NCBI GenBank assembly: GCA_013334245.1 | Contig: JAAXXZ010000001.1 | Span: 54,675 to 118,674 of the forward strand | Length of the DNA: 64,000 bases | Reading direction: 5' to 3' | Source of the DNA: Candidatus Moraniibacteriota bacterium | Lineage (GTDB): Bacteria; Patescibacteriota; Minisyncoccia; Moranbacterales; UBA1568 | Part shown: piece after piece, positions 1 to 61,470 of the stretch | How the letters are laid out: the number at the start of each line of letters is the position of its first letter | Position numbering within the stretch: position 1 is the first letter of the stretch | Program-made: the position numbers and the translations under genes | The notes under the pieces: model-generated | The model's database searches: none | Told to the model about the DNA's origin: nothing | What the model saw: the letters and a program-made list of their open reading frames with translations, nothing else

Positions 1-443
1 GCGATGCTCCGATTCTCGTCCGTCACCGGCTGCGGGAATCCGACCGCATACAGGGACGAAATCAAAATCCAGGCGAGCAGGAAATTCATCACGACCCCGG
101 CGGCGAGTACCGCCACCCGCGTTCCCACGGACTTCGAGGCGAAACTGTCCGAGTCGAGCAGCGCGTTCGAATCCTCGCCTTTCATCCGGACGAACCCACC
201 GAACGGGATCCAGTTGAGGGAGTAAATCGTATGCTCGGATGTCACGTCCGTATCGCCGAGCAGTATCCGTCTTTTGCCGGTCTTCGAATCCTTCACGATC
301 CCGAGCAGGCGCGGCGGGAAACCGAACCCGAATTCTTCGGCCTTGATACCGCTTCTGATCGCCACGATGAAATGACCAAGCTCATGAGCCAGTATGAGCA
401 CCCCGAGCAGCAGAAAAAAAATGAGGAACGTCGCGAACGTCAT
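1..443 (-). CDS. rseP: RIP metalloprotease RseP / site-2 protease (peptidase M50), N-terminal part; gene continues beyond window start
   Basis: Minus-strand reading frame from ATG at 443 running off the window start, so it is absent from the ORF track. Translation MTFATFLIFFLLLGVLILAHELGHFIVAIRSG...IPFGGFVRMKGED...NKSVGTRVAVLAAGVVMNF gives the HExGH zinc motif and conserved blocks as in E. coli RseP. It lies downstream of frr as in the common frr...rseP arrangement. Confidence 0.8.
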   Translation of the reverse strand, partial: MTFATFLIFFLLLGVLILAHELGHFIVAIRSGIKAEEFGFGFPPRLLGIVKDSKTGKRRILLGDTDVTSEHTIYSLNWIPFGGFVRMKGEDSNALLDSDSFASKSVGTRVAVLAAGVVMNFLLAWILISSLYAVGFPQPVTDENRSI

Positions 444-467
444 GGCGTTTCTTCGTTTGAGATCGGA

Positions 468-1031
468 TTATACCGTGAGGATTTCCTCTTCCTTGCGCTT
501 TCGTACGGATTCGAGCTCCGCGTTCCATTTGTCCACCTCCTTCTGAAGCTCGTCCTTTCCCGAGAACTTCTCGTCTTCCCCGATCAGGCCTTCTTTTTCC
601 AGCGACAGGATCTCCTTCCATATCTCCTCCCTGATATTACGCACGGAAACGCGCGCGTCTTCCATCCTGGCGTTCAGAGTCCTGACAAGCTCCTTTCGAC
701 GGTCCTCCGTAAGCGGAGGAAGCGACAGACGGATGATGTGACCGTCGTCCGCGGGATTGAGGCCGAGATCGGAGGTCCGGATCGCATCGGCGACCGCCTG
801 GAGACTCGACTGATCCCATGGTTGGATGACCAGCATCCGCGGCTCCGGAACCGTGACGCTCGCTATCTGCTTGATCGGCGTGCGCGAACCGTAATACTCG
901 ACCATGACATCCTCGACGAGGGACGGATGCGCCCTGCCTGTCCGCAACTTCGCCGCCTCCATCTGAAAATGCTCCGATGCCGCTCGGAAACGGCTTTCGT
1001 TGCCCGAGATGATTCCTTTCACTTCGCTCAT
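468..1031 (-). CDS. frr: ribosome recycling factor
   Basis: The 187 aa ORF has the VEYYGSRTPIKQIASVTVPEPRMLVIQPWD signature and overall RRF length and architecture. ATG start at 1031. Confidence 0.92.
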   Translation of the reverse strand: MSEVKGIISGNESRFRAASEHFQMEAAKLRTGRAHPSLVEDVMVEYYGSRTPIKQIASVTVPEPRMLVIQPWDQSSLQAVADAIRTSDLGLNPADDGHIIRLSLPPLTEDRRKELVRTLNARMEDARVSVRNIREEIWKEILSLEKEGLIGEDEKFSGKDELQKEVDKWNAELESVRKRKEEEILTV

Positions 1032-1076
1032 ACTGATTGATAACTGGTTATCCGGATATGTGAGACCGACAAGACA

Positions 1077-2237
1077 TCACTTGAAATTCCGCAGACCGAC
1101 GAACAGATACCTGGAGTCGAACGGGTCGTACGAGACGACGGAGGCGGAACGATCCGAGTTAAGCGCGGTGACCGACCACGTCGCCCCTTCGTTCGTCGAC
1201 CGATAGAATGTCTTTCCCGCGACGAAAACGATATTCTTCGAATCCCGAGGATCGACCGCGACCGACCGGATGGGAAATTTCTCCGCGCTCTCGATGATAT
1301 TGAGCTTGGTCCAATTCTTCCCGTCGTCGGTACTCCGATATATTCCCGAATCCGACGTACCCGCATACAGGACACCCGATCGCGAAGGATCGGCGACCAG
1401 GGTCAGCATCTGACCGGGCGCATCCGTCGCGTTTGCAGCCGACTGATCGATTCCTTTTCCCTGGAGTGCACGCGCCCTCGCCTCTTCCGCCTTCACGGTC
1501 TTCCAGTCGATCCACGTGTTTCCCCCGTCGAACGAGTGGTACATGCCCTGTCCATACGTTATGAAGGATATCGAATCGTGACGTTTCGCATCGAAGGTGA
1601 TATTCGAGATGATCCCGTACTCCGTTTTGCTGCCGAGATTCTTCCACGTCGCCCCCGCGTCGAGCGACTTCAACAGCGTTCCGGCATTCGTTCCCGCATA
1701 GATGACCTCCGCGTTCCACGGATCCTGCGCAAGCGAGGAAACGAACGTTTCGTTCCCCGGTTCCGTATAGACCTCGGTCCAATTGGATCCGTTGTCATCC
1801 GTCCGGAAAATCTTTCCGCGGCCGTTCACGACGCCGGAAACGAACATCCTGTTATCGGGATCCCTCCGATCGACGATGAAGCTGTAGATGCGTTTCGGCG
1901 GAAACGGGATAGGTAGCCAGGTCTCCCCGCCGTTATCCGTCTTGAACACCCCGTCATCGACGGTGCCGAGTACGATCGACTTCGGCTTGGTAGGGTGAAA
2001 AGCGATGGACAGTATGTCCGCCTTATCGATCATCCGGTTCGCATCAACGGTCGAACGGACCTGGAACGTAAGACCGGCATCCTCGCTTTTCCACACGCTG
2101 CCCTTCTCGTTCTTCGATACGAGCCCGCCCGGAACAGGCAATTGCAACTGACCGGTCGACGATGGTTGGGTACCGACCGAGCATCCCGACAACACTACCG
2201 CCATAAGCGGCACGAGAAACTGTATCGTTTTTTTCAT
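1077..2237 (-). CDS. secreted lipoprotein with BNR/Asp-box repeats (Ycf48/sortilin-like beta-propeller)
   Basis: Internal ATG (M31 of track ORF 1077..2327) gives MKKTIQFLVPLMAVVLSGCS, a lipobox signal peptide. There are multiple S-x-D-x-G-x-T-W repeats (TDNGGETW, TDDNGSNWT, SLDAGATW, SFDGGNTW, STDDGKNWT, STNEGATW). Confidence 0.6.
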   Translation of the reverse strand: MKKTIQFLVPLMAVVLSGCSVGTQPSSTGQLQLPVPGGLVSKNEKGSVWKSEDAGLTFQVRSTVDANRMIDKADILSIAFHPTKPKSIVLGTVDDGVFKTDNGGETWLPIPFPPKRIYSFIVDRRDPDNRMFVSGVVNGRGKIFRTDDNGSNWTEVYTEPGNETFVSSLAQDPWNAEVIYAGTNAGTLLKSLDAGATWKNLGSKTEYGIISNITFDAKRHDSISFITYGQGMYHSFDGGNTWIDWKTVKAEEARARALQGKGIDQSAANATDAPGQMLTLVADPSRSGVLYAGTSDSGIYRSTDDGKNWTKLNIIESAEKFPIRSVAVDPRDSKNIVFVAGKTFYRSTNEGATWSVTALNSDRSASVVSYDPFDSRYLFVGLRNFK

Positions 2238-2357
2238 ATTTGGGAGTTTTCCCGTGGGTTCCTGTTTTTTCAGTATATCAGAAGGACCCGAAAAGCAAAG
2301 TGGCGATTGACTCCCGACTTCGTACAAGCTATACTTCCCTTGTTTCCATTTTATGCC

Positions 2358-2446
2358 GGGTCGTTAGCTCACCCGAACGAAAGGCTTTACATAGCAATAC
2401 GGGCAGGGTTGGTAAATCCGCCAACTGGCGGAATTTCAGGTTAGCC
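2358..2446 (+). repeat. degenerate tRNA-Lys-derived repeat copy A: first 14 nt of tRNA-Lys (GGGTCGTTAGCTCA), a 36 nt insert, then GTTGGTAAATCCGCCAACTGGCGGAATTTCAGGTTAGCC carrying the TCCGCC-N4-GGCGGA palindrome
   Basis: Direct sequence comparison with the intact tRNA-Lys at 2718-2790 and with copies at 2791-2888 and 3717-3785. Confidence 0.6.
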
Positions 2447-2448
2447 TG

Positions 2449-2727
2449 ATGAATATGGATTCTCTGACGAGATACTCCATATATGTAATACAAAACGAAG
2501 CCGGTAAAAGATATATCGGATATACTTCTGATTTAGAAAAGCGGCTCAAGCGGCATAATGGGGATTTACCGAACAAAACGACGTCCTATACGCGGAAGAA
2601 TCGAGGACACTGGACATTGAAATACAAAGAGGAGTACGCTAGTAGACAGGAGGCATTACGGAGGGAAAAGGAATTGAAAAGTTGCCAAGGCAGAAAGTTT
2701 ATCACAGAGATACTCTCGGGTCGTTAG
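2449..2727 (+). CDS. GIY-YIG nuclease family protein (YhbQ/UPF0213-like small GIY-YIG domain)
   Basis: The 92 aa ORF has YSIYVIQNEAGKRYIGYTSDLEKRLKRHN, the GIY...YIG...R...H core. It is AT-rich (about 38% GC) against the 57% background. Its stop codon TAG is formed by bases 8-10 of the tRNA-Lys gene. Confidence 0.8.
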   Translation: MNMDSLTRYSIYVIQNEAGKRYIGYTSDLEKRLKRHNGDLPNKTTSYTRKNRGHWTLKYKEEYASRQEALRREKELKSCQGRKFITEILSGR

Positions 2728-2790
2728 CTCAGTTGGTAGAGCAGTGGCCTTTTAAGCCAACGGTCGCTGGTTCGAATCCAGCACGACCCA
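2718..2790 (+). tRNA. tRNA-Lys (anticodon UUU)
   Basis: Cloverleaf: acceptor GGGTCGT/ACGACCC, D-arm GCTC-AGTTGGTA-GAGC, anticodon loop CTTTTAA, T-arm GCTGG-TTCGAAT-CCAGC, discriminator A. No encoded CCA. Confidence 0.85.
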
Positions 2791-2888
2791 CACCGAGAAA
2801 ACATGCTCCATATCGATCAGTTGGTAGATCCGCCGGCTGGCGGACTGTTAAGCCAACGGTCGCTGGTTCGAATCCAGCACGACCCACC
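2791..2888 (+). repeat. tRNA-Lys-derived repeat copy C: leader CACCGAGAAAACATGCTCCATATCGATCA plus degenerate tRNA-like GTTGGTAGATCCGCCGGCTGGCGGACTGTTAAGCC...TTCGAATCCAGCACGACCCACC. It lacks a 5' acceptor strand and the anticodon arm is replaced by the palindrome TCCGCCGGCTGGCGGA
   Basis: 3' portion is identical to the tRNA-Lys 3' half. There is no GGGTCGT 5' strand, so no cloverleaf can form. The leader reappears in degenerate form after this copy (CCGAGAATAGACGCTCTATATCTATCAGTTG). Confidence 0.6.
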
Positions 2889-2919
2889 CCGAGAATAGAC
2901 GCTCTATATCTATCAGTTG

Positions 2920-3716
2920 TCCGAAATCCGCATTTGCCCTAGTGCTAAAATTAACAATTCAACAATATGACAACGAATAGATGTATCATAATTCATGGAT
3001 GCCCCTCTGATTCTGAAAAAGAGATGGATCCTGAAACAAGGACCTATGACAAGCACTGGATTCCGTGGTTAAAAAGAAATCTTATTGCAAAAAATATTGA
3101 AACGGAAACTCCCCTCATGCCATCGCCCTGGCAACCTGATTATGAAAAAATCAAAGCTGAGTTTGAAAAATATACTGTTGATGAAAACACAATCTTAGTG
3201 GGTCATAGTTGCGGTTGTGCCTTCTTGGTTCGATGGCTTGGTGAAACTAAGACCAAAATTTTTAAACTTTTTTTAGTCGCGCCTTGGAAAATTCCGCAAG
3301 AGAAAAGGAATGGTGCTGATGTAAATTTCTATACATATCAGATTGACCAGTCTATCAAGGACAGGATAAGTCAAATAGTTATGTTTACTGCGGACGATGA
3401 GGAGGAAGACGGAAAAAAAAGTTTAAAAATTTTTCATGATGTACTTGGTGGCGAGATTATCGAGCTAAAAGGGCGAGGGCATTACTGTTTGGACGATATG
3501 AAAACCGAGGAGCTTCCTGAGCTATTGGAAAAGATTTTGCAATAAGATTTCGAGGCATCCATTTCTTGCTAACAAGGACGGGCAAATGCGGACACCGCAC
3601 AACACTTCATATCCGGTTCAGGAATTTTTCACATTTATGATTCAAGGTAGGGAAAATTCCTTCTCCCAAATTTTTGTTCCGCTATCGCTGCACAAAAAAT
3701 TCGGATGATGCCGAAA
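2920..3716 (+). mobile_element. putative non-autonomous cassette inserted in a tRNA-derived repeat unit. AT-rich, carries the hydrolase gene, has internal inverted repeats TCCGCATTTGCCC (2927-2939) and GGGCAAATGCGGA (3580-3592), and is flanked by GTTG on both sides (2916-2919 and 3717-3720)
   Basis: The repeat unit ...ATCAGTTG|GTAGATCCGCC... is interrupted after GTTG at 2919 and resumes with GTTGGTAGATCCGCC at 3717. GC content drops to about 38% inside. Inverted 13-nt repeats lie near both ends. Confidence 0.4.
2967..3545 (+). CDS. alpha/beta serine hydrolase of the RBBP9/YdeN family (PF06821-like)
   Basis: 192 aa with N-terminal IIIHG, LVGHSCG nucleophile elbow (GxSxG), and C-terminal GHY motif. 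It is a paralogue of the CDS at 8266..8820. AT-rich codon usage. Confidence 0.75.
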   Translation: MTTNRCIIIHGCPSDSEKEMDPETRTYDKHWIPWLKRNLIAKNIETETPLMPSPWQPDYEKIKAEFEKYTVDENTILVGHSCGCAFLVRWLGETKTKIFKLFLVAPWKIPQEKRNGADVNFYTYQIDQSIKDRISQIVMFTADDEEEDGKKSLKIFHDVLGGEIIELKGRGHYCLDDMKTEELPELLEKILQ

Positions 3717-3785
3717 CGTTGGTAGATCCGCCGGCTGGCGGACTGTTAAGCCAACGGTCGCTGGTTCGAATCCAGCACGACCCAC
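3717..3785 (+). repeat. tRNA-Lys-derived repeat copy D (GTTGGTAGATCCGCCGGCTGGCGGACTGTTAAGCC...ACGACCCACC), identical to copy C body
   Basis: 69 nt identical to 2820-2888. No 5' acceptor strand upstream. Confidence 0.6.
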
Positions 3786-3793
3786 CGAAAACG

Positions 3794-3818
3794 AAAAGCC
3801 GCCATAGGGCGGTTTTTC
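3794..3818 (+). terminator. Rho-independent terminator-like hairpin AAAAGCCGCC-ATAG-GGCGGTTTTT
   Basis: GC stem 6 bp, 4-nt loop, followed by T5. Lies directly after repeat copy D. Confidence 0.5.
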
Positions 3819-3862
3819 GCTTGTGTCGGTCGAAGGCGAAGAAACGGGCACTTGACTGACAC

Positions 3863-4324
3863 TCATTCACTTATGGTTTTCCTCATCGGTATCAATAGCA
3901 ATCGGCGTCCCTCAAGTGGCTCCTTCGCAAGGACATCGACCGGCTCGACAGAGCTCCACCCGTTCGCCCTGAAAAATTCCACTGCGTTCGGCTCCGCACT
4001 CAGCAGCGCGGTCCGCTTTCCTCGTACCCGCAAACGCGCCTCCAATTTCGAAAGAATCTGTGTGCCGAGTCCCTGCAGACGATATTCCGGCCGCACGAAC
4101 ACATGCGTAACCCAACCGTCCTTCCGTGCCCGTCCGAATCCGGCGAATCGGTCGTTTTCCCAGGCGGTCAGGAACAGATCGCCTTCCCACGTGCGTATCT
4201 CATCCTCGGCAGGATCGTCAAACGCGACTTCGGATGCCGCATCGTCCACGTGCAAAAGGTCGACGATATCTTTCGCGCTGGCCGAACCGAAACCGTCACA
4301 CATTGAAAAGTTCGATCCGTTCAT
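3863..4324 (-). CDS. GNAT family N-acetyltransferase
   Basis: The 153 aa ORF has a GNAT-like core (HVFVRPEYRLQGLGTQIL), the acetyl-CoA binding Q/RxxGxG/A motif. ATG start overlaps the stop of the upstream gene (ATGA). Confidence 0.7.
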   Translation of the reverse strand: MNGSNFSMCDGFGSASAKDIVDLLHVDDAASEVAFDDPAEDEIRTWEGDLFLTAWENDRFAGFGRARKDGWVTHVFVRPEYRLQGLGTQILSKLEARLRVRGKRTALLSAEPNAVEFFRANGWSSVEPVDVLAKEPLEGRRLLLIPMRKTISE

Positions 4325-5313
4325 GCGATTTCTGTCTTATTGTCCGGACGCAACATCCTTGCCAGTGAACTCTTCGCTTCGAATATCCTCTTCGTCGCCT
4401 CGTATTTGGCCGCGTATTCGATATTGATCTTTATCCCGAACGCCCCGTTTTTTATATCACCGTCGAACATTTTCTTTCCCAGCTGCTGCCCCCACTTGCT
4501 GTTTCCATGCGCTACACATATTTCTTTCCGAATCTCTTCCGCCCGCCCACTCATATACGCTAAGAAGCCTGCCATAGTCGGCGCGGCGCCACTTCCCTCT
4601 TTTTCGATGCTTATCAGATATTTTCGGAAAAAGGTCGCATTATACCTGAGGACTCCGAATTTCTCCACGTCATCAGATTCGGAATATTCGCTCACTTCCT
4701 TGATGATCTCGGCGAACAGTTTCGCCGCACCCTTGGCAGATCCACCGATAGTCTTGGGATTGACATTGAACCGTCCCGCCGCCCACGGAGTCAGCTGAAA
4801 AGGCCCGCCCTTCCCCCACGTCTCGTTGTTCCAGAAAGACTCATACATGGATACCAACGCGAATGTCCTCGGAACGCTTTCCTTATCGAACTCATGCGAT
4901 ACGGTGCTCCAGTTTTGTCGGAGGCCGTCAATAGCGGAATCGAAATCGCCCGCGAAATCACCCTCCGTATACTGCCAAACCCAATAATCGACCATTTTTT
5001 CAAACTCTTCCATTCCGATCTCTTTCACGCCTTTCTCATAAGAGAACATCTCGTCCATGGGGTTTTCATGAACGTTTTCGGATTCAACGGATTCCGGTTC
5101 CTCCTGAGCTTTTCCGCGACCTTCGACGACCTCTTGTTCCTTTTTTCCATCGACCAGCAATTCATGGAGCGCACCTGCCCCTACCGCGGTCCCGGCCAGC
5201 ACTATTCCCGCATCCCGAAGAAACTTTCTTCTGCCTGGATCCGCCTCCGCGGGACGTCCCGCCTTTCTATCCGCAGCGCCTCCGACCGTTGGTTTTTCGA
5301 ATCCGAACGCCAT
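4321..5313 (-). CDS. hypothetical secreted protein with twin-arginine (Tat) signal peptide
   Basis: Internal ATG (M11 of track ORF, whose own start is TTG). RRKFLRDAGIVLAGTAVGAGA matches the Tat motif S/T-RRxFL followed by a hydrophobic stretch. The rest has no domain I can name. Confidence 0.5.
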   Translation of the reverse strand: MAFGFEKPTVGGAADRKAGRPAEADPGRRKFLRDAGIVLAGTAVGAGALHELLVDGKKEQEVVEGRGKAQEEPESVESENVHENPMDEMFSYEKGVKEIGMEEFEKMVDYWVWQYTEGDFAGDFDSAIDGLRQNWSTVSHEFDKESVPRTFALVSMYESFWNNETWGKGGPFQLTPWAAGRFNVNPKTIGGSAKGAAKLFAEIIKEVSEYSESDDVEKFGVLRYNATFFRKYLISIEKEGSGAAPTMAGFLAYMSGRAEEIRKEICVAHGNSKWGQQLGKKMFDGDIKNGAFGIKINIEYAAKYEATKRIFEAKSSLARMLRPDNKTEIA

Positions 5314-5405
5314 ATCCGTATCTGAATCAGTACGTATCAACAATATTGTACACCAAAAGGAAAACTGGAACGACCGGCCCTCGTATAGTATACTGCATTC
5401 ACTCC

Positions 5406-6593
5406 ATGTTTACGGAAAAAATCCCTATGAACCGAGACCATCCGGCCATCAAATATCACCTCGAAAGTCGCGGAAAGATCGAAACGTCCCTCAAATCCCC
5501 CTTACGTTCAGCAGAAGATCTCTCACTCGCGTATACCCCGGGAGTGGCGGAAGTATGCAGGACCATCGCGGCGGAACCCGAAACCGTGGAAACACTCACG
5601 AATCGCGGAAATACGGTCGCGATCGTGACTGATGGGACCGCCATTCTCGGGCTCGGCGATATAGGCCCCTCTGCCGGTCTTCCGGTCATGGAAGGGAAAG
5701 CCATGCTGTTCAAGAAAACGGCGGACGTCGATGCCGTACCGCTCTGCATCTCGGCGAACGGCACGGAGGACGTAGTCCGATTCTGCAAACAGATCGAACC
5801 GTCGTTCGGAGGCATCAACCTCGAGGATATCGCGGCTCCGGAATGTTTTGAAATTCTTGAAAGACTTGAAAAGGAACTTTCAATTCCCGTGTTTCATGAC
5901 GATCAGGACGGTACCGCCATCGTGGTCACGGCAGCGCTCATAAACGCTTCCAAGGTACGCGGCAGCGACATCACATCGCTTCGGGCCGTCATAAACGGAT
6001 CAGGAGCGGCCGGCATAGCGATCGCGAGACTCCTGATTTCAAAAGGTGTCGAAGACGTCGTACTCGTCGACAGCAAGGGCATCCTGAACCTCGAACGGGC
6101 GGACCTTAACGATTCGAAGCGGGAAATAGCGTCGCGATCGAATCCTCGCGCGCTTTCCGGGAATCTCGCAACCGCCTTATCGAATGCGGACGTATTCATC
6201 GGCGTCTCCAAAGGAAATATCCTCGACCGCGACGACATACGGACGATGGCCGAACGGCCCATCGTGTTCGCGATGGCGAATCCGGAACCCGAAATTCTTC
6301 CCGACGAGGCGACCGCGGGCGGAGCATTCATCGTCGGCACCGGTCGTTCCGATTTCCCCAATCAGATAAACAACGCGCTTGTTTTTCCCGGACTGTTCCG
6401 GGGACTCCTCGACGCGCGCGCCGCGGATTCTTCCCGCTCCGTTTCAAAGGTGACGGACTCCCTGAAACTCGCCGTCGCGAACGCTCTGGCGGGAACGGTC
6501 GAACCGACCGTCGACCGCATCCTCCCGGCCGTCATGGACCCTTCCGTCGTCCCGGCTGTCCGCGCAGCCGTTCTTGCATGGGACGCTTCATAA
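5406..6593 (+). CDS. NAD(P)-dependent malic enzyme (short bacterial form)
   Basis: Conserved malic-enzyme blocks LSLAYTPGVAEVC, VTDGTAILGLGDIG, GINLEDIAAPECF, VINGSGAAGIA, FAMANPEPEI. Start set at internal ATG (M40); 5427 is an alternative. Confidence 0.85.
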   Translation: MFTEKIPMNRDHPAIKYHLESRGKIETSLKSPLRSAEDLSLAYTPGVAEVCRTIAAEPETVETLTNRGNTVAIVTDGTAILGLGDIGPSAGLPVMEGKAMLFKKTADVDAVPLCISANGTEDVVRFCKQIEPSFGGINLEDIAAPECFEILERLEKELSIPVFHDDQDGTAIVVTAALINASKVRGSDITSLRAVINGSGAAGIAIARLLISKGVEDVVLVDSKGILNLERADLNDSKREIASRSNPRALSGNLATALSNADVFIGVSKGNILDRDDIRTMAERPIVFAMANPEPEILPDEATAGGAFIVGTGRSDFPNQINNALVFPGLFRGLLDARAADSSRSVSKVTDSLKLAVANALAGTVEPTVDRILPAVMDPSVVPAVRAAVLAWDAS

Positions 6594-6680
6594 TCGGCAT
6601 TTCAAGGCCCTGTCGAACCCAACACAAAAAGACGCCCTGTCTCCGGGGCGTCTTTTTGAACCGATCATCTTCGTGAAATC

Positions 6681-8003
6681 TTATACCGCGACAAGCCGGT
6701 CTTTCCCGACGTACGGACGCAGGACTTCCGGCACGACGACGGAACCGTCGGCTTGCTGGAAATTCTCAAGAATGGCGATAAGCGGACGGATGCTGGTAAG
6801 AGCGGTATTGTTGAGCATATAGACCGGGATCTTCTTCCCCGTTTCCGGATCACGATATTTCACATCGAGGCGTCGAGCCTGCCAATCGGTGAAGTTCGAG
6901 GAGCTCCCAAGCTCGCCCCAGCGGCTGAGACCCGGCATCCAGGCTTCCAGGTCGAATGCCTTGTATTTTCCGGTTCCCATATCACCCGCACAAATGCGTA
7001 TTTTTCGATACGGAAGTCCGAGTTCGGACAGTATTTCTTCCGTGATGGACAGCATCTCCGACTGCAGCGTTTCGGCCATATCGATATCGGCGGGAACAAG
7101 CACGACCTGCTCGACCTTCATGAACTCATGCACGCGATACAGACCCTTCGTATCCTTTCCATAGGAGCCGATCTCACTCCGATAGCACTGGCTGAATCCG
7201 GCATATCGGATCGGCAGATCGGCCGCTTCGAGCGTTTCACCGGAATGAAAAGCGAGGAGTGACGGCTCGGAAGTTCCCACAAGGAATTTCTTTTCCTTCG
7301 ATTCGCTCCCGTCCGTTTCCTTGTCCGATGACGCGACCTGATAGATCTCGTCCACCTCCCCGTCGTATTCGAGTCCCTTGAAATAGCCGCTGCCGAAAAG
7401 CGGAAATCCTTTCACCAATGTCGGCGGAATCATAGGAAGATATCCCTTTGCCGACATCTTGGACAGGGCATATGACATGAGTCCGAGGGCAAGAAGCGCT
7501 CCGTCCCCCTTGAGATAATATCCGCGGTACCCGGCGACCTTCGTTCCCCGCTCGAGGTCGAACAGTCCGAGCGATTCGCCAAGCGCGATATGATCCTTCG
7601 GTTCGAACCCGAATTCACGGATCTCGCCGTTGCGCGACACCTCCACGTTGTCTTCGTCACTCTGTCCTTCCGGCGTGTCCTCCGCAACGATGTTCGGTAC
7701 GAGCGCCATCAGCGCATCGAAACGCGCTTTCGTTTCACGAGCCATCGGCTCAAGCGATTCGATCTTCTCCTTGATGGCTCTCCCTTCGGCGATGGCCTCC
7801 TGCCGTTCCTCGTCCGACTTCGCCTGCGCGATTTTTTGGTTCAGGCCGTTCTTCTCCGCCTGGGCGGACTCCAAGGCCTGTGCCGCCTCGATCCGCGCCC
7901 GGTCCGCCTCAAAAAGCGCCTCGATATCGAAAGTAAGCTTCTTGCTTTTCGCCGCCTTGGCGATCTCGTCCCTATGATCACGGATGAACTGAATGTCGAG
8001 CAT
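6681..8003 (-). CDS. serS: serine--tRNA ligase
   Basis: N-terminal MLDIQFIRDHRDEI coiled-coil arm and class II core motifs (FHSGETLEAADLPIRYAGFSQCYRSE, GLYRVHEF). Start at internal ATG M16. Confidence 0.9.
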   Translation of the reverse strand: MLDIQFIRDHRDEIAKAAKSKKLTFDIEALFEADRARIEAAQALESAQAEKNGLNQKIAQAKSDEERQEAIAEGRAIKEKIESLEPMARETKARFDALMALVPNIVAEDTPEGQSDEDNVEVSRNGEIREFGFEPKDHIALGESLGLFDLERGTKVAGYRGYYLKGDGALLALGLMSYALSKMSAKGYLPMIPPTLVKGFPLFGSGYFKGLEYDGEVDEIYQVASSDKETDGSESKEKKFLVGTSEPSLLAFHSGETLEAADLPIRYAGFSQCYRSEIGSYGKDTKGLYRVHEFMKVEQVVLVPADIDMAETLQSEMLSITEEILSELGLPYRKIRICAGDMGTGKYKAFDLEAWMPGLSRWGELGSSSNFTDWQARRLDVKYRDPETGKKIPVYMLNNTALTSIRPLIAILENFQQADGSVVVPEVLRPYVGKDRLVAV

Positions 8004-8010
8004 AATCGGG

Positions 8011-8100
8011 AACTGACAACCTATAACTGACAACTTATAACCGTCCACATAATCAGTGGCTGAGATTTCTTGTTGTAAGTTGTTTGTTGTAAGTTATTCG
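8011..8100. repeat. dispersed intergenic repeat, motif B: AACTGACAACCTATAACTGACAACTTATAACC (8011-8042) and inverted GTTGTAAGTTGTTTGTTGTAAGTTATTCG (8072-8100)
   Basis: The same CAACTGACAACTTACAACTG-type motif recurs at 44471-44502 and 59080-59130. Confidence 0.55.
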
Positions 8101-8113
8101 TTTAATGACGTTG

Positions 8114-8187
8114 TGGTCGCTGGTGGACTCGAACCACCGACCCCTGCAATGTGAATGCAGTGCTCTAACCAACTGAGCTAAGCGACC
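8114..8187 (-). tRNA. tRNA-Val (anticodon CAC)
   Basis: Reverse complement GGTCGCTTAGCTCAGTTGGTTAGAGCACTGCATTCACATTGCAGGGGTCGGTGGTTCGAGTCCACCAGCGACCA. Acceptor GGTCGCT/AGCGACC, anticodon stem CTGCA/TGCAG, loop TTCACAT. Confidence 0.85.
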
Positions 8188-8265
8188 CCTCTCTACTCCG
8201 CTTATCCTAGCCGAAACGGCGAAAATTGTCCAACCGTTCACATGTTTCTTTCAACTATTCGACAT

Positions 8266-8820
8266 TCACCCCATCATTTCTTTCAAAGCATCCAGGCATG
8301 GCGGCAGTTCGAACCATCCCGCCGAAGTGTTGAGATGCTTACCGCCCTGAACGACGGTTAATTCGGCGGATAGTTCCGAGGACAGGCGTTCCGCGTCTTT
8401 CATGGGCACATAGGGATCGTCATCTCCCTGAATGACGGCGAAGCGACCGCATTTTGAAGAGATGGTCGAAAAATCGAATCCGTCTTCCAAAAAATTATCT
8501 ATCGTTCTATTGTCATTCTTGGATATCGGCCCGGCAACGAGTACGGCCCCTTGGATGGGATGCACATTGTCATTCTCCAGGTACCGCAATATCGCCGTTG
8601 CACCCAAGGAATGACCTACGAGGTACACCTCGTCGCCGACAGACCATTCTACGGCTCTTTCTATCTCGCCGACCCACTCAGAACACAGCGGCCACTCCGG
8701 ATCCGGCATGGGCAGCGCACAGGCATAGATATCCTTCTTCTCGAGTTCCGCCATGAGCCACGGCCGCCACCCGCCGTTCGGCGTCCCCTGAAAGCCATGG
8801 ATGATAAAGACCTTTTTCAT
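8266..8820 (-). CDS. alpha/beta serine hydrolase of the RBBP9/YdeN family (second paralogue)
   Basis: MKKVFIIHGFQG..., LVGHSLGA (GxSxG), PF06821-like length of 184 aa. Its start overlaps the idi stop. Confidence 0.7.
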   Translation of the reverse strand: MKKVFIIHGFQGTPNGGWRPWLMAELEKKDIYACALPMPDPEWPLCSEWVGEIERAVEWSVGDEVYLVGHSLGATAILRYLENDNVHPIQGAVLVAGPISKNDNRTIDNFLEDGFDFSTISSKCGRFAVIQGDDDPYVPMKDAERLSSELSAELTVVQGGKHLNTSAGWFELPPCLDALKEMMG

Positions 8821-9371
8821 AGACTATTCTCCGCCAACAATTCCCGTACGATCCCCTTTTCCTCCAGCAGCAAGGCCTCTTCCTCGCACCACTCCGAATA
8901 GGTCCCGGGATGCTCGCGGATCTCGGCTAGGAAGTCGTCCCAATCCGCCCACCGTGTCGCCTCGACCTCGTCAGCGGCCGGATTCGGTTCGACGGATGCG
9001 ATTCCGATAAAAACCGGGCAGATCTCGTTTTCCGTCACGCCCTCCCTGGTGAACTTGTACCGGTATGGCATGCCGAACCGGAGTATATCCGCCTTCATGC
9101 CGAGCTCGCGGTCCAGCCGTCGCGCAACCGCATCGATACGTTCCTCGCCGGGACCGGGATGACCGCAACAGCTGTTCGACCAGACCAACGGCCAAACTTT
9201 CTTCACATGACTTCGCTGCTGCAGGAGTAGCTTTCCATCAGATTTTCGGAACAGGAAACAGGAAAACGCCCGATGAAGCGGCGTCTCCAACCCGTGGACC
9301 TCCGATTTCGGCATCGTGCCGATCTCGGTATCGTTTTCGTCTATCAGGACGACCAGTTCGACTTCGGACAT
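8817..9371 (-). CDS. idi: isopentenyl-diphosphate delta-isomerase, type 1 (Nudix fold)
   Basis: HRAFSCFLF, WSNSCCGHP and E-rich Nudix-like motifs characteristic of IDI-1. 184 aa. Confidence 0.85.
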   Translation of the reverse strand: MSEVELVVLIDENDTEIGTMPKSEVHGLETPLHRAFSCFLFRKSDGKLLLQQRSHVKKVWPLVWSNSCCGHPGPGEERIDAVARRLDRELGMKADILRFGMPYRYKFTREGVTENEICPVFIGIASVEPNPAADEVEATRWADWDDFLAEIREHPGTYSEWCEEEALLLEEKGIVRELLAENSL

Positions 9372-60867: not shown

Positions 60868-60939
60868 TGGGGAGTCGCCAAGCGGTAAGGCAACAGGTTT
60901 TGGTCCTGTCATACGGGGGTTCGAATCCCTCCTCCCCAA
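60868..60939 (+). tRNA. tRNA-Gln (anticodon UUG)
   Basis: TGGGGAGTCGCCAAGCGGTAAGGCAACAGGTTTTGGTCCTGTCATACGGGGGTTCGAATCCCTCCTCCCCAA closely parallels E. coli tRNA-Gln (UGGGGUAUCGCCAAGCGGUAAGGCACCGGUUUUUGAUACCGG...). Acceptor TGGGGAG/CTCCCCA, anticodon loop TTTTGGT. Confidence 0.85.
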
Positions 60940-60955
60940 CACGAGCATAGCGAGG

Positions 60956-61470
60956 GTTGGGGAGGAGGGATTCGAACGGGCAGGAACGATCCGCCAGCTG
61001 GCGGAGAGCGTAGATGAATGCGAGCGAGCGCAGCATTCAACTCTGCCCTGGACAAGGAGCGAAGCGACGCGAAAATCCCTCATAACAGATTGCATAGTGA
61101 GCGTTGTTGGGGAGGAGGGATTCGAACGAGCAGAAGCGATCCGCCAGCTGGCGGAGAGCGTAGATGAATGCGAGCGAGCGCAGCATTCAACTCTGCCCTG
61201 GACAAGGAGCGAAGCGACGCGAAAATCCCTCCCCCGCTCTAGCATAGCGAGGGTTGGGGAGGAGGGATTCGAACCGGTGACAGCAAAGCAAGGTAGAGTC
61301 CAGCAGGACGATACCGCCACGTTCGCCGACAAATGCGACCTTAGAAGCATTTGGCGCCACCGTGGACAAGAAGCCTTCCGTAGGAAGGTGACGCGAAAAT
61401 CCTTCCGCATATTCAAACACAGTGAGCGTTGTTGGGGAGGAGGGATTCGAACGAGCAGAAGCGACTACCC
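60956..61470 (-). repeat. tandem array of four MITE-like units (periods of about 150, 147 and 178 bp; last unit truncated). Each starts with GTTGGGGAGGAGGGATTCGAAC, the reverse complement of the tRNA-Gln 3' end. Units 1-2 carry the perfect palindrome TCCGCCAGCTGGCGGA and end in an imperfect terminal inverted repeat (..GCGAAAATCCCTCC)
   Basis: Units at 60956, 61106, 61253 and 61431. Units 1 and 2 are near-identical internally; unit 3 has a different core. ORF-track ORFs 60400..61416 and 60716..61489 across this region are artefacts of the repeats. Confidence 0.6.

What the first reader, a model, noticed from the sequence alone, without database searches (positions are those of the whole stretch)
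2340..3830. tRNA-Lys locus is a composite insertion hotspot: four tRNA-derived repeat copies bracket a 1.3 kb AT-rich islet
One intact tRNA-Lys(UUU) at 2718-2790 is accompanied by three degenerate copies of itself: A at 2358-2446, C at 2791-2888 and D at 3717-3785. Each copy keeps the D-arm (GTTGGTAGA) and, in C and D, the entire 3' half (TTAAGCCAACGGTCGCTGGTTCGAATCCAGCACGACCCACC). All have lost the 5' acceptor strand, so none can fold as a tRNA. The anticodon-arm region is replaced by a palindrome TCCGCC-N4-GGCGGA. Between the copies, GC content falls from about 57% to about 38%, and two cargo genes sit there: a GIY-YIG nuclease and a YdeN-type hydrolase. Duplicated tRNA 3' halves are the classic footprint of repeated site-specific integration into a tRNA gene, but no integrase is present. 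This looks like either the decayed remnant of serial integrations or an uncharacterised tRNA-targeting element whose enzyme is encoded elsewhere.
Basis: seen in the sequence. Interest (0 to 1): 0.75.

Follow-up and report, generated by a model that had tools for sequence, protein, structure and literature searches.

The report
Small nuclease cassette colonising tRNA-Lys gene
A lysine tRNA gene in a Moranbacteria genome carries a small GIY-YIG nuclease gene flanked by broken copies of the tRNA, each with a conserved 16-base hairpin in place of part of the cloverleaf; the same arrangement recurs next to tRNA genes in many bacteria, and I found no description of it.

Summary
tRNA-Lys(UUU) at 2718-2790 is intact. 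Copies C and D are identical over 69 nt. The hairpin TCCGCC-N4-GGCGGA replaces tRNA nt 24-31.

The "cargo" GIY-YIG gene is the signature gene of the arrangement. In 80 metagenome loci chosen only by similarity to this protein, 70 have a same-strand tRNA gene within 500 nt and 55 have the hairpin. In 24 of 43 loci the reading frame ends on the tRNA's own T8-A9-G10, as it does here. Hairpin variants keep their pairing through compensatory changes.

Relatives with the same gene order show an empty site, a hairpin-only state, and 1-3 tandem copies. The nuclease gene is under purifying selection (dN/dS 0.07). The copies share lineage-specific changes with the intact tRNA.

No integrase is present, so serial integration is not supported.

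The hydrolase is an unrelated low-GC gene, recently acquired and inserted into the D-loop of the last copy.

Best reading: a selfish UPF0213/SLX1-like nuclease cassette living in tRNA transcription units. Spread by nuclease-stimulated recombination is inferred, not shown. I found no published description.

The parts
2307..2335 (+). Promoter-like site TTGACT-17-TATACT, the tRNA-Lys promoter. It now lies in front of unit A.
   Evidence: 10 of 12 matches. The same promoter, TTGACG-17-TATACT, precedes the plain tRNA-Lys in the empty-site relatives L214 and L215.
2358..2371 (+). Unit A, 5' fragment: tRNA-Lys nt 1-14 (GGGTCGTTAGCTCA).
   Evidence: A 15-nt exact direct repeat with 2717-2731; sequence checked. 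It sits where tRNA +1 lies relative to the promoter in the empty site.
2372..2407 (+). 36-nt insertion in the D-loop of unit A (CCCG...CGGG stem).
   Evidence: Part of it (AAAGGCTTTA) is shared with relative L213.
2408..2446 (+). Unit A, remainder: D-loop GTTGGTAAA, hairpin TCCGCCAACTGGCGGA (2417-2432), and a degenerate anticodon loop plus stem (ATTTCAGGTTAGCC).
2449..2727 (+). GIY-YIG nuclease gene of UPF0213/SLX1-like type. It is 92 aa from ATG 2449, or 90 aa from ATG 2455 as annotated in public records. Its stop codon TAG is tRNA nt 8-10.
   Evidence: Pfam PF01541. Best PDB sequence matches are UPF0213 and SLX1, and so are the best fold matches. dN/dS is 0.07 against L120. The ORF overlaps the tRNA.
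2718..2790 (+). Intact tRNA-Lys(UUU).
   Evidence: ARAGORN; Rfam 73.9 bits. Identical to the tRNA of empty-site relative L214.
2791..2888 (+). Unit C: spacer, D-arm GATCAGTTGGTAGATC (2815-2830), hairpin TCCGCCGGCTGGCGGA (2829-2844), then tRNA nt 32-73 plus CC (2845-2888).
   Evidence: Below threshold as a tRNA (16.9 bits).
2889..2919 (+). Spacer and start of a third unit (ATCAGTTG), cut off by the hydrolase cassette.
   Evidence: Direct repeat family D1; sequence.
2920..3717 (+). Low-GC cassette (GC 0.39) inserted in the D-loop of the third unit. GTTG is found on both sides.
   Evidence: Absent from all syntenic relatives (L120-L123, L213-L218).
2916..2939 (.). Left arm of the inverted repeat that brackets the hydrolase gene (GTTGTCCGAAATCCGCATTTGCCC). 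Its partner is at 3580-3603.
   Evidence: pair I1: 24 nt, 83% complementary.
2967..3545 (+). Ser_hydrolase (PF06821, YdeN-type) gene, acquired horizontally.
   Evidence: More than 1,800 homologs at 70-87% identity across Patescibacteria classes. 84% DNA identity to L209, confined to the ORF; GC3 is 0.37 against 0.58-0.70 for host genes. dN/dS 0.06.
3580..3603 (.). Right arm of the inverted repeat (GGGCAAATGCGGACACCGCACAAC).
   Evidence: pair I1.
3718..3786 (+). Unit D: D-loop GTTGGTAGA, hairpin (3727-3742), then tRNA nt 32-73 plus CC. Identical to unit C.
3799..3812 (.). Terminator-like hairpin CCGCCATAGGGCGG with T runs on both strands. It is the original tRNA-Lys terminator context and is shared with the convergent GNAT gene.
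   Evidence: A comparable terminator follows the tRNA or the last unit in relatives.

Best explanation
The locus is a tRNA-Lys transcription unit occupied by one member of a widespread family of very small GIY-YIG nuclease genes (UPF0213/SLX1-like, about 85-95 aa) that live next to tRNA genes.

Shown:
- The tRNA's own promoter is now followed by a broken 5' copy of the tRNA (nt 1-14 and 15-23). Next come a 16-nt hairpin that replaces nt 24-31, the nuclease reading frame, and then the intact tRNA.
- The reading frame has no stop codon of its own. It ends on the tRNA's T8-A9-G10.
- Downstream lie tandem 3' copies (D-loop, hairpin, nt 32-73). Their number varies between strains.
- The copies carry the same lineage-specific substitutions as the functional tRNA.
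- In every hairpin-bearing copy examined, the hairpin takes the place of part of the cloverleaf, usually one strand of a stem. Its pairing is kept by compensatory changes.

Inferred:
- The nuclease makes breaks or nicks at structured DNA, either the hairpin/cruciform or the tRNA gene itself.
- Repair by recombination between the repeated tRNA segments then creates, amplifies and homogenises the copies.
- The same repair lets the cassette be copied into an unoccupied tRNA gene, as in homing.
- The cassette borrows the tRNA promoter for its expression.
- RNase P cleavage at tRNA +1 would remove the stop codon from the nuclease message and so keep expression low.

The hydrolase gene is not part of this family. 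It is a functional low-GC gene, recently acquired and inserted into the D-loop of the last copy.
For: - Family-level linkage. GIY ORFs homologous to 2449-2727 sit beside hairpin-bearing tRNA copies in 12 or more loci from several phyla, found by a DNA pattern alone.
- The converse holds. Of 80 metagenome loci chosen only by GIY protein similarity, 70 have a tRNA gene within 500 nt, always on the same strand, and 55 have the hairpin. By my rough estimate, chance would put a tRNA that close in about 6% of loci.
- In 28 of 43 loci the ORF ends inside the downstream tRNA. In 24 of them the stop codon is T8-A9-G10, as in the window.
- Hairpin pairing is conserved. Of hits with two substitutions, 9 are compensatory and 2 are not; I estimate about 3% by chance. 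Variants include TCCGTC/GACGGA, TTCGCC/GGCGAA, TCAGGC/GCCTGA and TCCGGC/GCCGGA.
- Gain and loss occur at the same chromosomal site. L214 and L215 are empty, with an identical tRNA and promoter. L213 and L218 have the hairpin unit but no nuclease gene. L120-L123 have the nuclease and 1, 2 or 3 downstream units.
- Concerted evolution. T-arm and D-loop substitutions that distinguish the window from the L120 lineage are shared by each lineage's tRNA and its units.
- The gene is functional. dN/dS is 0.07 and the catalytic Y, Y, R and E residues are invariant. The best sequence and fold matches are UPF0213 proteins and the Slx1 nuclease domain. Slx1-Slx4 cleaves branched DNA (PMC4407285).
- GC3 of the GIY gene is 0.47 against 0.58-0.70 for host genes.
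- No integrase or transposase lies nearby.
- The family is not carried on phages or plasmids.
- Precedent: T4 SegB, a GIY-YIG homing endonuclease in a tRNA gene cluster (PMC2330249), promotes segmental amplification (PMC13096335).
Against: - No nuclease activity, cleavage site or transfer event is shown. Mobility is inferred only from patchy presence at one site and from the wide taxonomic spread.
- The intact tRNA next to the nuclease gene is identical to the tRNA of the empty-site relative. There is therefore no sign of a cleavage-resistant rescue copy, which a simple homing model would predict.
- The hairpin sits at different tRNA positions in different subfamilies: after nt 23, in the D-loop, after the anticodon loop, and in the T-arm. 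It has host tRNA sequence on both sides. So it is neither a fixed insertion boundary nor a replacement of one fixed target site.
- The same hairpin occurs in other tRNA-linked elements with no nuclease gene nearby, including the window's tRNA-Gln locus. This loosens the link between hairpin and nuclease.
- The protein has no DNA-binding domain (only positions 4-40 of the 215-position profile TIGR01453 matched), so the source of any specificity is unknown.
- All close relatives of the window strain carry the cassette. The empty site comes from a relative whose flanking BNR protein is only 68% identical.
Confidence: 0.55

Rival explanations
1. Passive origin. The tRNA copies are ordinary tandem duplications of a tRNA gene. 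The hairpin is a REP-like small palindromic repeat that accumulates in such non-essential DNA. The GIY-YIG gene is a neighbour with a host function, such as repair, and plays no part in making or moving the copies.
For: - The hairpin occurs in tRNA-linked elements that have no GIY gene (window 60990 and 61140; L213 and L218; L036).
- UPF0213 proteins are common single-domain bacterial proteins.
- Tandem repeats carrying a tRNA 3' end are known downstream of E. coli tyrT (my own knowledge, not tested here).
Against: - It does not explain why 70 of 80 loci chosen by this protein subfamily have a same-strand tRNA within 500 nt, or why the ORF so often ends on the tRNA's T8-A9-G10.
- It does not explain why [GIY + unit] itself is the repeat unit in L043.
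- All 5 perfect hairpins in the 64-kb window lie in tRNA-derived units.
- The GIY gene's GC3 differs from that of host genes.
Confidence: 0.17
2. Functional module. The hairpin-bearing tRNA fragments are expressed as RNAs, for example tRNA mimics, decoys or antitoxin-like repeats. They act together with the nuclease, as in a type III toxin-antitoxin or defence system, or they regulate expression of the tRNA operon.
For: - Arrays of short hairpin units lie upstream in the same transcription unit as the nuclease gene (L077, 5 or more units of 65 nt; L059, 4 units of 52 nt).
- The hairpin ends about 10-20 nt before the GIY start codon.
- Hairpin pairing is conserved by compensatory change. Single mismatches are G.T on the sense strand in 5 cases and A.C in 1.
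- Anticodon loops are often retained.
Against: - Anticodon loops drift in the copies: CTGTTAA and ATTTCAG in the window, CGTGTAA in L120.
- There is no convincing match to known defence families. PADLOC gives only weak 'homing endonuclease' hits.
- GIY-YIG enzymes are DNA nucleases as far as is known.
- No Rfam family matches.
- Many loci have only one unit.
Confidence: 0.15
3. One reading: the duplicated tRNA 3' halves are att-site footprints of repeated integrase-mediated integration of genomic islets, and the integrase has since been lost.
For: - Direct repeats of the tRNA 3' half bracket low-GC DNA.
- The hydrolase gene is horizontally acquired.
Against: - No integrase is present here or in any related locus inspected.
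- The repeats start in the D-loop and carry a conserved hairpin substitution found across phyla.
- A 5' fragment copy also exists (unit A).
- In relatives, units of about 100 nt repeat in tandem with nothing between them.
- The hydrolase cassette lies inside a unit's D-loop, not between a tRNA 3' end and its repeat.
Confidence: 0.03
4. Copies C and D are unusual functional tRNAs or tRNA-like genes, for example containing an intron or permuted.
For: The T-arm and the 3' acceptor strand are intact. ARAGORN occasionally calls related units in other genomes as odd tRNAs (L034, L069, L099, L105).
Against: - C and D have no 5' acceptor strand.
- Rfam tRNA scores 16.9 bits against a threshold of 29, and ARAGORN makes no call.
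- The weak YrlA (Y RNA-like) hit in L120 scores 22.6 against 69 bits.
- The anticodon loop differs from that of the tRNA.
Confidence: 0.01

Closest known systems
Free-standing GIY-YIG homing endonuclease genes in the phage T4 tRNA gene cluster (SegB)
   Same: A GIY-YIG nuclease gene sits among tRNA genes and acts selfishly through DNA breaks and recombinational repair (PMC2330249). SegB also drives tandem segmental amplification of a tRNA locus (PMC13096335). That resembles the tandem units here and the repeated [GIY + unit] blocks in L043.
   Different: By my own knowledge, SegB is more than twice as long and has a DNA-binding part; it is phage-borne. This protein is the bare catalytic domain (about 90 aa). 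It is chromosomal and essentially absent from phage and plasmid collections. It is accompanied by hairpin-substituted partial tRNA copies, which are not described for seg genes.
UPF0213 (YazA/YhbQ-type) proteins and the SLX1 nuclease domain
   Same: These are the best sequence matches (1ywl E 3e-10, 1zg2, SLX1) and the best fold matches. SLX1-SLX4 cuts branched DNA structures (PMC4407285). That fits a role for a DNA hairpin or cruciform.
   Different: I found no report linking UPF0213 or SLX1 proteins to tRNA genes, hairpin repeats or mobility. SLX1 needs a partner, SLX4; no partner is evident here.
Genomic islands integrated into tRNA genes by tyrosine integrases
   Same: Partial direct repeats of a tRNA gene flank foreign, compositionally deviant DNA.
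   Different: There is no integrase. The repeats carry a hairpin substitution, and 5' fragments are also duplicated. The units are about 100 nt and tandem. The foreign hydrolase gene lies inside a D-loop.
REP elements and their RAYT transposases (REPINs)
   Same: A short conserved hairpin repeat is associated with, and often flanks, a single nuclease-type gene. The pairing of the hairpin is conserved rather than every base. (The comparison rests on my own knowledge of REP/RAYT.)
   Different: RAYTs are HUH/Y1 enzymes, not GIY-YIG. REPs are dispersed through intergenic regions. This hairpin is embedded in tRNA-derived sequence.
Tandem repeats carrying the tRNA 3' end downstream of E. coli tyrT
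   Same: Tandem units downstream of a tRNA gene each contain the 3' end of that tRNA. (My own knowledge; not tested here.)
   Different: Those repeats have no nuclease gene and no hairpin substitution, and the phenomenon is specific to one locus.
Group I introns in tRNA genes of Patescibacteria
   Same: Selfish elements that interrupt tRNA genes in the same phylum (PMC13011429).
   Different: No group I intron is detected here. The tRNA is intact, not split. That paper mentions neither GIY nor hairpins nor duplications.

Membership tests
Functional tRNA (copies C and D) | Cloverleaf with paired acceptor stem; Rfam RF00005 score at or above 29 bits | tested here: not met
   16.9 bits for C, covering model positions 10-63 only. 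ARAGORN finds only three tRNAs in the window. There is no 5' acceptor strand.
Integrase-mediated tRNA-targeting island | Tyrosine or serine integrase gene next to the tRNA | tested here: not met
   ORFs and Pfam hits within 1-9000 show none. None lies within about 4-6 kb in L001 or L120-L126.
Integrase-mediated tRNA-targeting island | The island is bounded by the tRNA and an exact copy of its 3' end (att core) | tested here: not met
   The repeats begin in the D-loop and carry a 16-nt hairpin in place of nt 24-31. The hydrolase cassette is inserted inside a unit's D-loop.
GIY-YIG nuclease superfamily | Match to the PF01541 domain | tested here: met
   E 5.5e-16, 59.1 bits against a cut-off of 22.6.
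GIY-YIG nuclease superfamily | Conserved catalytic residues (Tyr of GIY and YIG, Arg, Glu) | tested here: met
   Invariant Y12, Y22-I23-G24, R32, H36, N37 and E73 in 12 diverse members.
GIY-YIG nuclease superfamily | Characteristic fold | tested here: met
   Model pLDDT 79. Top Foldseek hits are 1zg2, 1ywl and Slx1 chains, probability 0.99-1.00.
UPF0213 / SLX1 branch | Closest relatives by sequence and by fold | tested here: met
   1ywl E 3.2e-10, 1zg2 E 1.5e-9, SLX1 E 2.5e-6; fold matches.
UPF0213 / SLX1 branch | Structure-specific cleavage of branched or hairpin DNA | not testable with these tools
   Needs biochemistry.
Homing endonuclease gene (free-standing) | Presence/absence polymorphism at the same chromosomal site among relatives | tested here: met
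   L214 and L215 are empty. L213 and L218 have the hairpin only. L120-L123, L001 and the window are occupied.
Homing endonuclease gene (free-standing) | Site-specific cleavage of the unoccupied allele and copying into it | not testable with these tools
   Needs cleavage and transfer assays.
Homing endonuclease gene (free-standing) | DNA-binding extension that gives a long recognition site (as in I-TevI and Seg proteins) | tested here: not met
   The protein is about 90 aa, and the GIY-YIG domain covers residues 9-78. TIGR01453 matches only profile positions 4-40 of 215, at 22 bits against a cut-off of 56.
REP/RAYT-type system | HUH/Y1 transposase associated with the hairpin repeats | tested here: not met
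   The associated gene is GIY-YIG. No other conserved neighbour appears.
Type III toxin-antitoxin / known defence systems | Nuclease belongs to a known toxin or defence family | tested here: not met
   PADLOC gives only weak 'HEase' hits (E 1.8e-5) and sub-threshold others.
Y RNA-like (YrlA) tRNA mimic | Rfam RF02553 score at or above 69 bits | tested here: not met
   22.6 bits in L120. No hit in the window.
Ser_hydrolase (PF06821, YdeN-type), for the second gene | Domain match | tested here: met
   E 4.4e-12, 46.7 bits against a cut-off of 22.

The most novel reading that the evidence does not exclude
This is a previously undescribed class of mobile element. A minimal SLX1-like GIY-YIG nuclease uses a conserved DNA hairpin, embedded in partial copies of a tRNA gene, as its cis-acting site, in the way RAYT uses REP. 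By doing so it duplicates, homogenises and colonises tRNA genes across Patescibacteria, Bacteroidota and other phyla. It draws expression from the tRNA promoter and takes its stop codon from the tRNA itself.
Probability: 0.35. Interest if true: 0.85.

Novelty: new variant of a known kind. Interest (0 to 1): 0.7.

Why it matters
- **A new way for a selfish nuclease gene to persist.** If the inference holds, the cassette sits inside an essential, highly transcribed tRNA unit. It uses the tRNA's promoter and the tRNA's conserved T8-A9-G10 as its stop codon, and it leaves hairpin-disrupted tRNA copies behind.
- **A possible role for UPF0213 proteins.** This is a very large family of "GIY-YIG nuclease family proteins" with no established function. 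The finding gives at least one branch a concrete genomic role.
- **A source of odd annotations.** It would account for many odd or "undetermined" tRNA calls and tRNA pseudogene arrays in Bacteroidota and Patescibacteria genomes.
- **A short, recognisable DNA signature.** A hairpin followed by a T-loop finds such loci.
- **It can be tested in culture.** Units occur in cultured isolates: Sunxiuqinia dokdonensis DH1, Mucilaginibacter sp. McL0603 and Niastella soli.

Tried and rejected
1. **Copies made from mature tRNA.** Units C and D end in ACC where the gene has ACA, so I considered that the units derive from CCA-tailed tRNA, as a retro-copy or a primer-binding site. Rejected: the trailers after the tRNA vary in the same way in relatives (CACCGAGA, CCCCGAGA, CCGAGA).
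2. **Antisense or guide RNA.** The minus strand of unit C can pair GGUGGGUC with GAUCUACC using G.U pairs. Its fold is not better than shuffled sequence (z -0.99). Single mismatches in the hairpin favour the GIY-sense strand instead.
3. **A cleavage-resistant rescue tRNA.** Not supported: the intact tRNA is identical to the one in the empty-site relative.
4. **The hydrolase as part of the element family.** Rejected: its homologs sit in ordinary contexts without tRNA genes.
5. **A decayed second GIY gene in the hydrolase cassette.** tblastn finds nothing.
6. **Known RNA families.** Rfam gives no match at threshold in the window or in related loci.
7. **Phage or plasmid carriage.** Essentially none.
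8. **Literature.** Six searches or look-ups, including one for the hairpin sequence itself, found no description. The library lacks most subscription-journal papers, so prior description cannot be excluded.
9. **Pair counting on an alignment of perfect hairpins (A2).** I did not use it as evidence, because those sequences had been selected for perfect pairing. The unbiased count was used instead.
10. **Technical failures.** One folding batch failed on a length limit and was repeated.

Full report
**1. What is in the window**

ARAGORN and Rfam agree on one intact tRNA-Lys(UUU) at 2718-2790 (73.9 bits). Around it lie three partial copies.

- **Unit A** begins with tRNA nt 1-14 (GGGTCGTTAGCTCA, 2358-2371), an exact repeat of the tRNA's 5' end. 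A 36-nt insertion follows. Then come GTTGGTAAA, the palindrome TCCGCCAACTGGCGGA (2417-2432) and a degenerate anticodon-loop segment.
- **Units C and D** (2820-2888 and 3718-3786) are identical over 69 nt. Each reads GTTGGTAGA, then TCCGCCGGCTGGCGGA, then tRNA nt 32-73 with one mismatch (T34 to G), plus CC. Unit C also keeps a D-arm with altered stem bases (GATC...GATC, 2815-2830).
- **A third unit** starts at 2889-2919 (spacer plus ATCAGTTG). It is interrupted by a 0.8 kb low-GC cassette (2920-3717) and resumes as unit D. GTTG is present on both sides of the cassette.

The palindrome replaces tRNA nt 24-31, that is, the end of the D-stem, nt 26 and the 5' strand of the anticodon stem. With one mismatch allowed, the palindrome pattern occurs 7 times in the window against 0.65 expected. 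All five perfect copies lie next to tRNA genes: three here and two downstream of tRNA-Gln.

GC drops to 0.36-0.44 in the two gene blocks, against 0.55 for the window. The two genes are a GIY-YIG nuclease (2449-2727) and a PF06821 serine hydrolase (2967-3545).

**2. The organism and its strains**

The window is about 99% identical to a contig of GCA_013336545.1. Public records name its GIY protein as coming from a Candidatus Moranbacteria MAG. That second strain shows no difference at all between 2302 and 3874.

**3. The hairpin-bearing tRNA copy is a widespread motif**

I scanned one genome per species for the hairpin followed by a T-loop.

| Group | Loci | Intact T-arm | tRNA gene within 600 nt |
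|---|---|---|---|
| Bacteroidota | 29 | 24 | 23 |
| Patescibacteria | 34 | 12 | 21 |
| Other phyla | 54 | 17 | 8 |

In the "other" group, 35 of the 54 loci show neither feature. Most of these lie in high-GC genomes and look like chance hits.

The true hits are copies of the neighbouring tRNA (Lys, Gly, Val, Arg, Ile and others) with the hairpin in place of part of the cloverleaf. They are often tandem: five units in L036, repeated blocks in L043.

**4. The nuclease gene is the constant companion**

ORFs homologous to 2449-2727 lie directly beside these units in at least 12 of the pattern-derived loci, from several phyla. In L077 and L080 the order is intact tRNA, GIY ORF, hairpin unit. In L043 the block [GIY + unit] of about 360 bp is itself repeated about five times.

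The converse test avoids the hairpin pattern altogether. A profile of the protein (A1) retrieved 80 metagenome loci.

- 70 of the 80 have a tRNA gene within 500 nt, always on the same strand as the ORF. By my estimate, chance would give roughly 6%.
- 55 of the 80 have the hairpin at two mismatches or fewer.
- The commonest layout is the one in the window: the hairpin starts about 25-50 nt before the point where the protein match begins, and the tRNA starts 0-30 nt after the ORF.
- The tRNAs are mostly Lys (UUU or CUU) and Asn, with some His, Thr and Met.
- In 28 of 43 loci the ORF ends inside the downstream tRNA. In 24 of them the stop codon is the tRNA's T8-A9-G10, exactly as in the window.

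The family is essentially absent from viral contigs, phage records and plasmids.

**5. The hairpin is conserved as a structure**

Variant hairpins at the same positions keep perfect pairing: CCCGTC/GACGGG, TCCGTC/GACGGA, TTCGCC/GGCGAA, TCAGGC/GCCTGA, TCCGGC/GCCGGA, TCCGTCCT/AGGACGGA and TCCGTTAG/CTAACGGA.

An unbiased count used hits within two substitutions of the consensus. Of those with exactly two substitutions, 9 are compensatory and 2 are not; I estimate about 3% by chance. Single mismatches are G.T on the GIY-sense strand five times and A.C once. This is weak evidence that pairing matters on that strand, as RNA or as single-stranded DNA.

The position of the hairpin in the tRNA copy varies between subfamilies. 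It follows nt 23 in most Lys units, sits in the D-loop after A14, follows the anticodon loop in Asn, His and Met units, or replaces the 5' strand of the T-stem. In each case host tRNA sequence lies on both sides, and in most cases one strand of a cloverleaf stem is lost.

**6. The protein**

It consists of the bare GIY-YIG domain. The Tyr, Tyr-Ile-Gly, Arg, His-Asn and Glu positions are invariant in 12 diverse members. The profile's best matches among solved structures are two UPF0213 proteins (E 3e-10 and 1.5e-9), followed by SLX1. A structure model (pLDDT 79) matches the same proteins best.

SLX1-SLX4 cleaves branched DNA structures (PMC4407285). Against the homolog in L120 (89% identical), dN/dS is 0.07. 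This is a maintained gene, not a relic. Its GC3 (0.47) is below that of neighbouring host genes (0.58-0.70).

**7. The same chromosomal site in relatives**

I used the flanking BNR-repeat protein to fetch syntenic loci, together with loci that encode the close GIY homolog P0002. This gives a series.

| Loci | Identity of flanking BNR protein | State of the tRNA-Lys site |
|---|---|---|
| L214, L215 | 68% | Empty: the same promoter (TTGACG-17-TATACT), a plain tRNA-Lys identical to the window's including its trailer, and a terminator |
| L213, L218 | 79%, 53% | A 5' hairpin unit and a conserved 21-nt linker before the tRNA; no nuclease gene |
| L216 | 66% | One truncated and one intact tRNA-Lys; no hairpin |
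| L120-L123 | not measured (GIY protein 89% identical to the window's) | Degenerate unit, nuclease gene, hairpin unit, tRNA, then 1, 2 or 3 tandem 101-nt units depending on the sample |

None of these relatives has the hydrolase. In the window, unit A's 5' fragment sits where tRNA +1 lies relative to the promoter in the empty site. Unit D is followed by the terminator. So a broken outer copy encloses the nuclease gene and an intact inner copy.

The T-arm differs between the window lineage (GCTGG/CCAGC) and the L120 lineage (GCAGG/CCCGC), and so does the D-loop (AGTTGG against AGCTGG). In each lineage the tRNA and its units share the same version. The copies are therefore being homogenised or regenerated.

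**8. The hydrolase cassette**

The protein has more than 1,800 homologs at 70-87% identity across many Patescibacteria classes. The three homologs whose surroundings I inspected sit in ordinary, unrelated contexts.

DNA similarity to the closest fetched homolog (84%, from a contig with 40% GC) stops at the ORF ends. GC3 is 0.37, and dN/dS is 0.06. It is a functional gene, recently acquired, that landed in the D-loop of a pseudo-tRNA unit.

Two details are unexplained. Unit A has its 36-nt insertion at the same D-loop position. The arms of the inverted repeat around the hydrolase gene (TCCGCATTTGCCC / GGGCAAATGCGGA) begin and end like the hairpin. I did not find a GIY remnant in the cassette.

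**9. How it most likely works**

Shown:
- a tRNA transcription unit in which the promoter drives a broken tRNA 5' copy, the hairpin, the nuclease ORF and the intact tRNA;
- an ORF that terminates on tRNA nucleotides;
- tandem hairpin-bearing 3' copies whose number varies;
- concerted evolution of the copies with the tRNA;
- gain and loss at one site;
- linkage of the nuclease, the hairpin and tRNA genes across phyla.

Inferred:
- the nuclease cuts structured DNA, either the hairpin/cruciform or the tRNA gene;
- recombinational repair between the repeated tRNA segments generates, amplifies and homogenises the units;
- the same repair can copy the cassette into an unoccupied tRNA gene.

Phage T4 SegB is the nearest precedent. 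It is a GIY-YIG endonuclease gene in a tRNA cluster that promotes its own inheritance (PMC2330249) and promotes segmental amplification (PMC13096335).

Three points weaken the inference. The intact tRNA is identical to the empty-site tRNA, so no resistant rescue copy is evident. The hairpin's position varies. The hairpin also occurs in other tRNA-linked elements with no nuclease gene nearby. I therefore hold the descriptive part with high confidence and the homing mechanism with moderate confidence. Overall confidence is 0.55.

**10. Rivals**

- **Passive duplications plus a REP-like hairpin (0.17).** This fails to explain the protein-to-tRNA linkage and the shared stop codon.
- **An RNA-based functional module, such as an antitoxin-like or decoy RNA (0.15).** This is compatible with the upstream unit arrays (L077, L059) and with the strand bias of mismatches. 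It has no support from known defence families or from Rfam.
- **Integrase footprints (0.03) and functional tRNAs (0.01).** Both are contradicted by direct tests.

**11. Novelty**

Literature searches on the gene family, the association and the hairpin sequence found nothing describing it. Rfam, NCBIfam, PADLOC and PHROGs do not name it. The library omits most subscription-journal papers, so earlier description cannot be excluded.

I class it as a new variant of a known kind: selfish GIY-YIG endonuclease genes. Its unusual features are a minimal nuclease, hairpin-substituted tRNA copies, and use of the tRNA's promoter and stop codon.

Noticed in passing
window 60956-61464 (+), downstream of tRNA-Gln(UUG) 60868-60940: About 3.2 tandem units of roughly 150 nt. 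Each starts with the reverse complement of the tRNA-Gln 3' end (GTTGGGGAGGAGGGATTCGAAC, at 60956, 61108, 61255 and 61434). The first copy forms a 22-bp inverted repeat with the tRNA's own 3' end. Units 1 and 2 carry the same hairpin, TCCGCCAGCTGGCGGA (60990, 61140). Homologous elements lie tail-to-tail with tRNA-Gly genes in other Moranbacteria (L052, L061, L067, L093). They share a consensus fold with some covariation. No Rfam family matches, and no GIY gene is nearby.
   Followed up: partly
L003, L008, L014, L022, L079, L083, L096; also L120 4640-4815, L216, L218: A third class of tRNA-linked structured element in Patescibacteria. Its core reads ..GCCTCTCGCC.., then the hairpin, then ..GGCTCCGGCGTTCGATTCC, and it ends in a copy of a neighbouring tRNA's 3' end. 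The roughly 200-nt element after the Lys units in L120, L216 and L218 is the same class on the other strand, with a compensated hairpin variant (TTTCCGTGCTCGGAAA). It is not in Rfam.
   Followed up: partly
window 8266-8820 (-), next to tRNA-Val 8113-8187 (-) and NUDIX 8817-9371 (-): A second PF06821 serine-hydrolase paralog with host-like GC (GC3 0.63). It sits between a tRNA gene and a NUDIX gene. Homologs of the low-GC copy elsewhere are often fused to, or adjacent to, NUDIX.
   Followed up: partly
window 2372-2407 and 2916-2939 / 3580-3603: Both foreign insertions in the pseudo-tRNA units sit in the D-loop: after A14 in unit A, and after GTTG in the third unit. The inverted repeat around the hydrolase gene begins TCCGC and ends GCGGA, like the 16-nt hairpin. 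It is unexplained whether hairpin arms can bracket cargo.
   Followed up: no
L120 4348-4420: In one assembly the tRNA-Lys anticodon loop reads CTATTAA (A at position 34). Three sister assemblies read CTTTTAA. This is either a sequencing error or a polymorphism in the functional copy.
   Followed up: no
L213 and L218, between the 5' hairpin unit and tRNA-Lys: A conserved 21-nt linker (TGTATAGTGAGAATCAATCTC in L213, TGTATAGTTACAAATGGTCTC in L218) sits where the nuclease gene lies in other lineages. It could be a deletion scar that keeps the ORF's first and last codons, or it could be a non-autonomous form.
   Followed up: no
window 4321-5343 (-): A 340-aa ORF with no Pfam or NCBIfam match. Together with the GNAT gene (3863-4324) it is absent from the L120-type and L213/L214-type relatives. 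A 339-aa ORF lies next to the malic enzyme gene in L216.
   Followed up: no
L079 2145-2357: A group I intron (Rfam RF00028, 69.3 bits) lies close to one of the tRNA-linked hairpin elements in a Minisyncoccia MAG.
   Followed up: no
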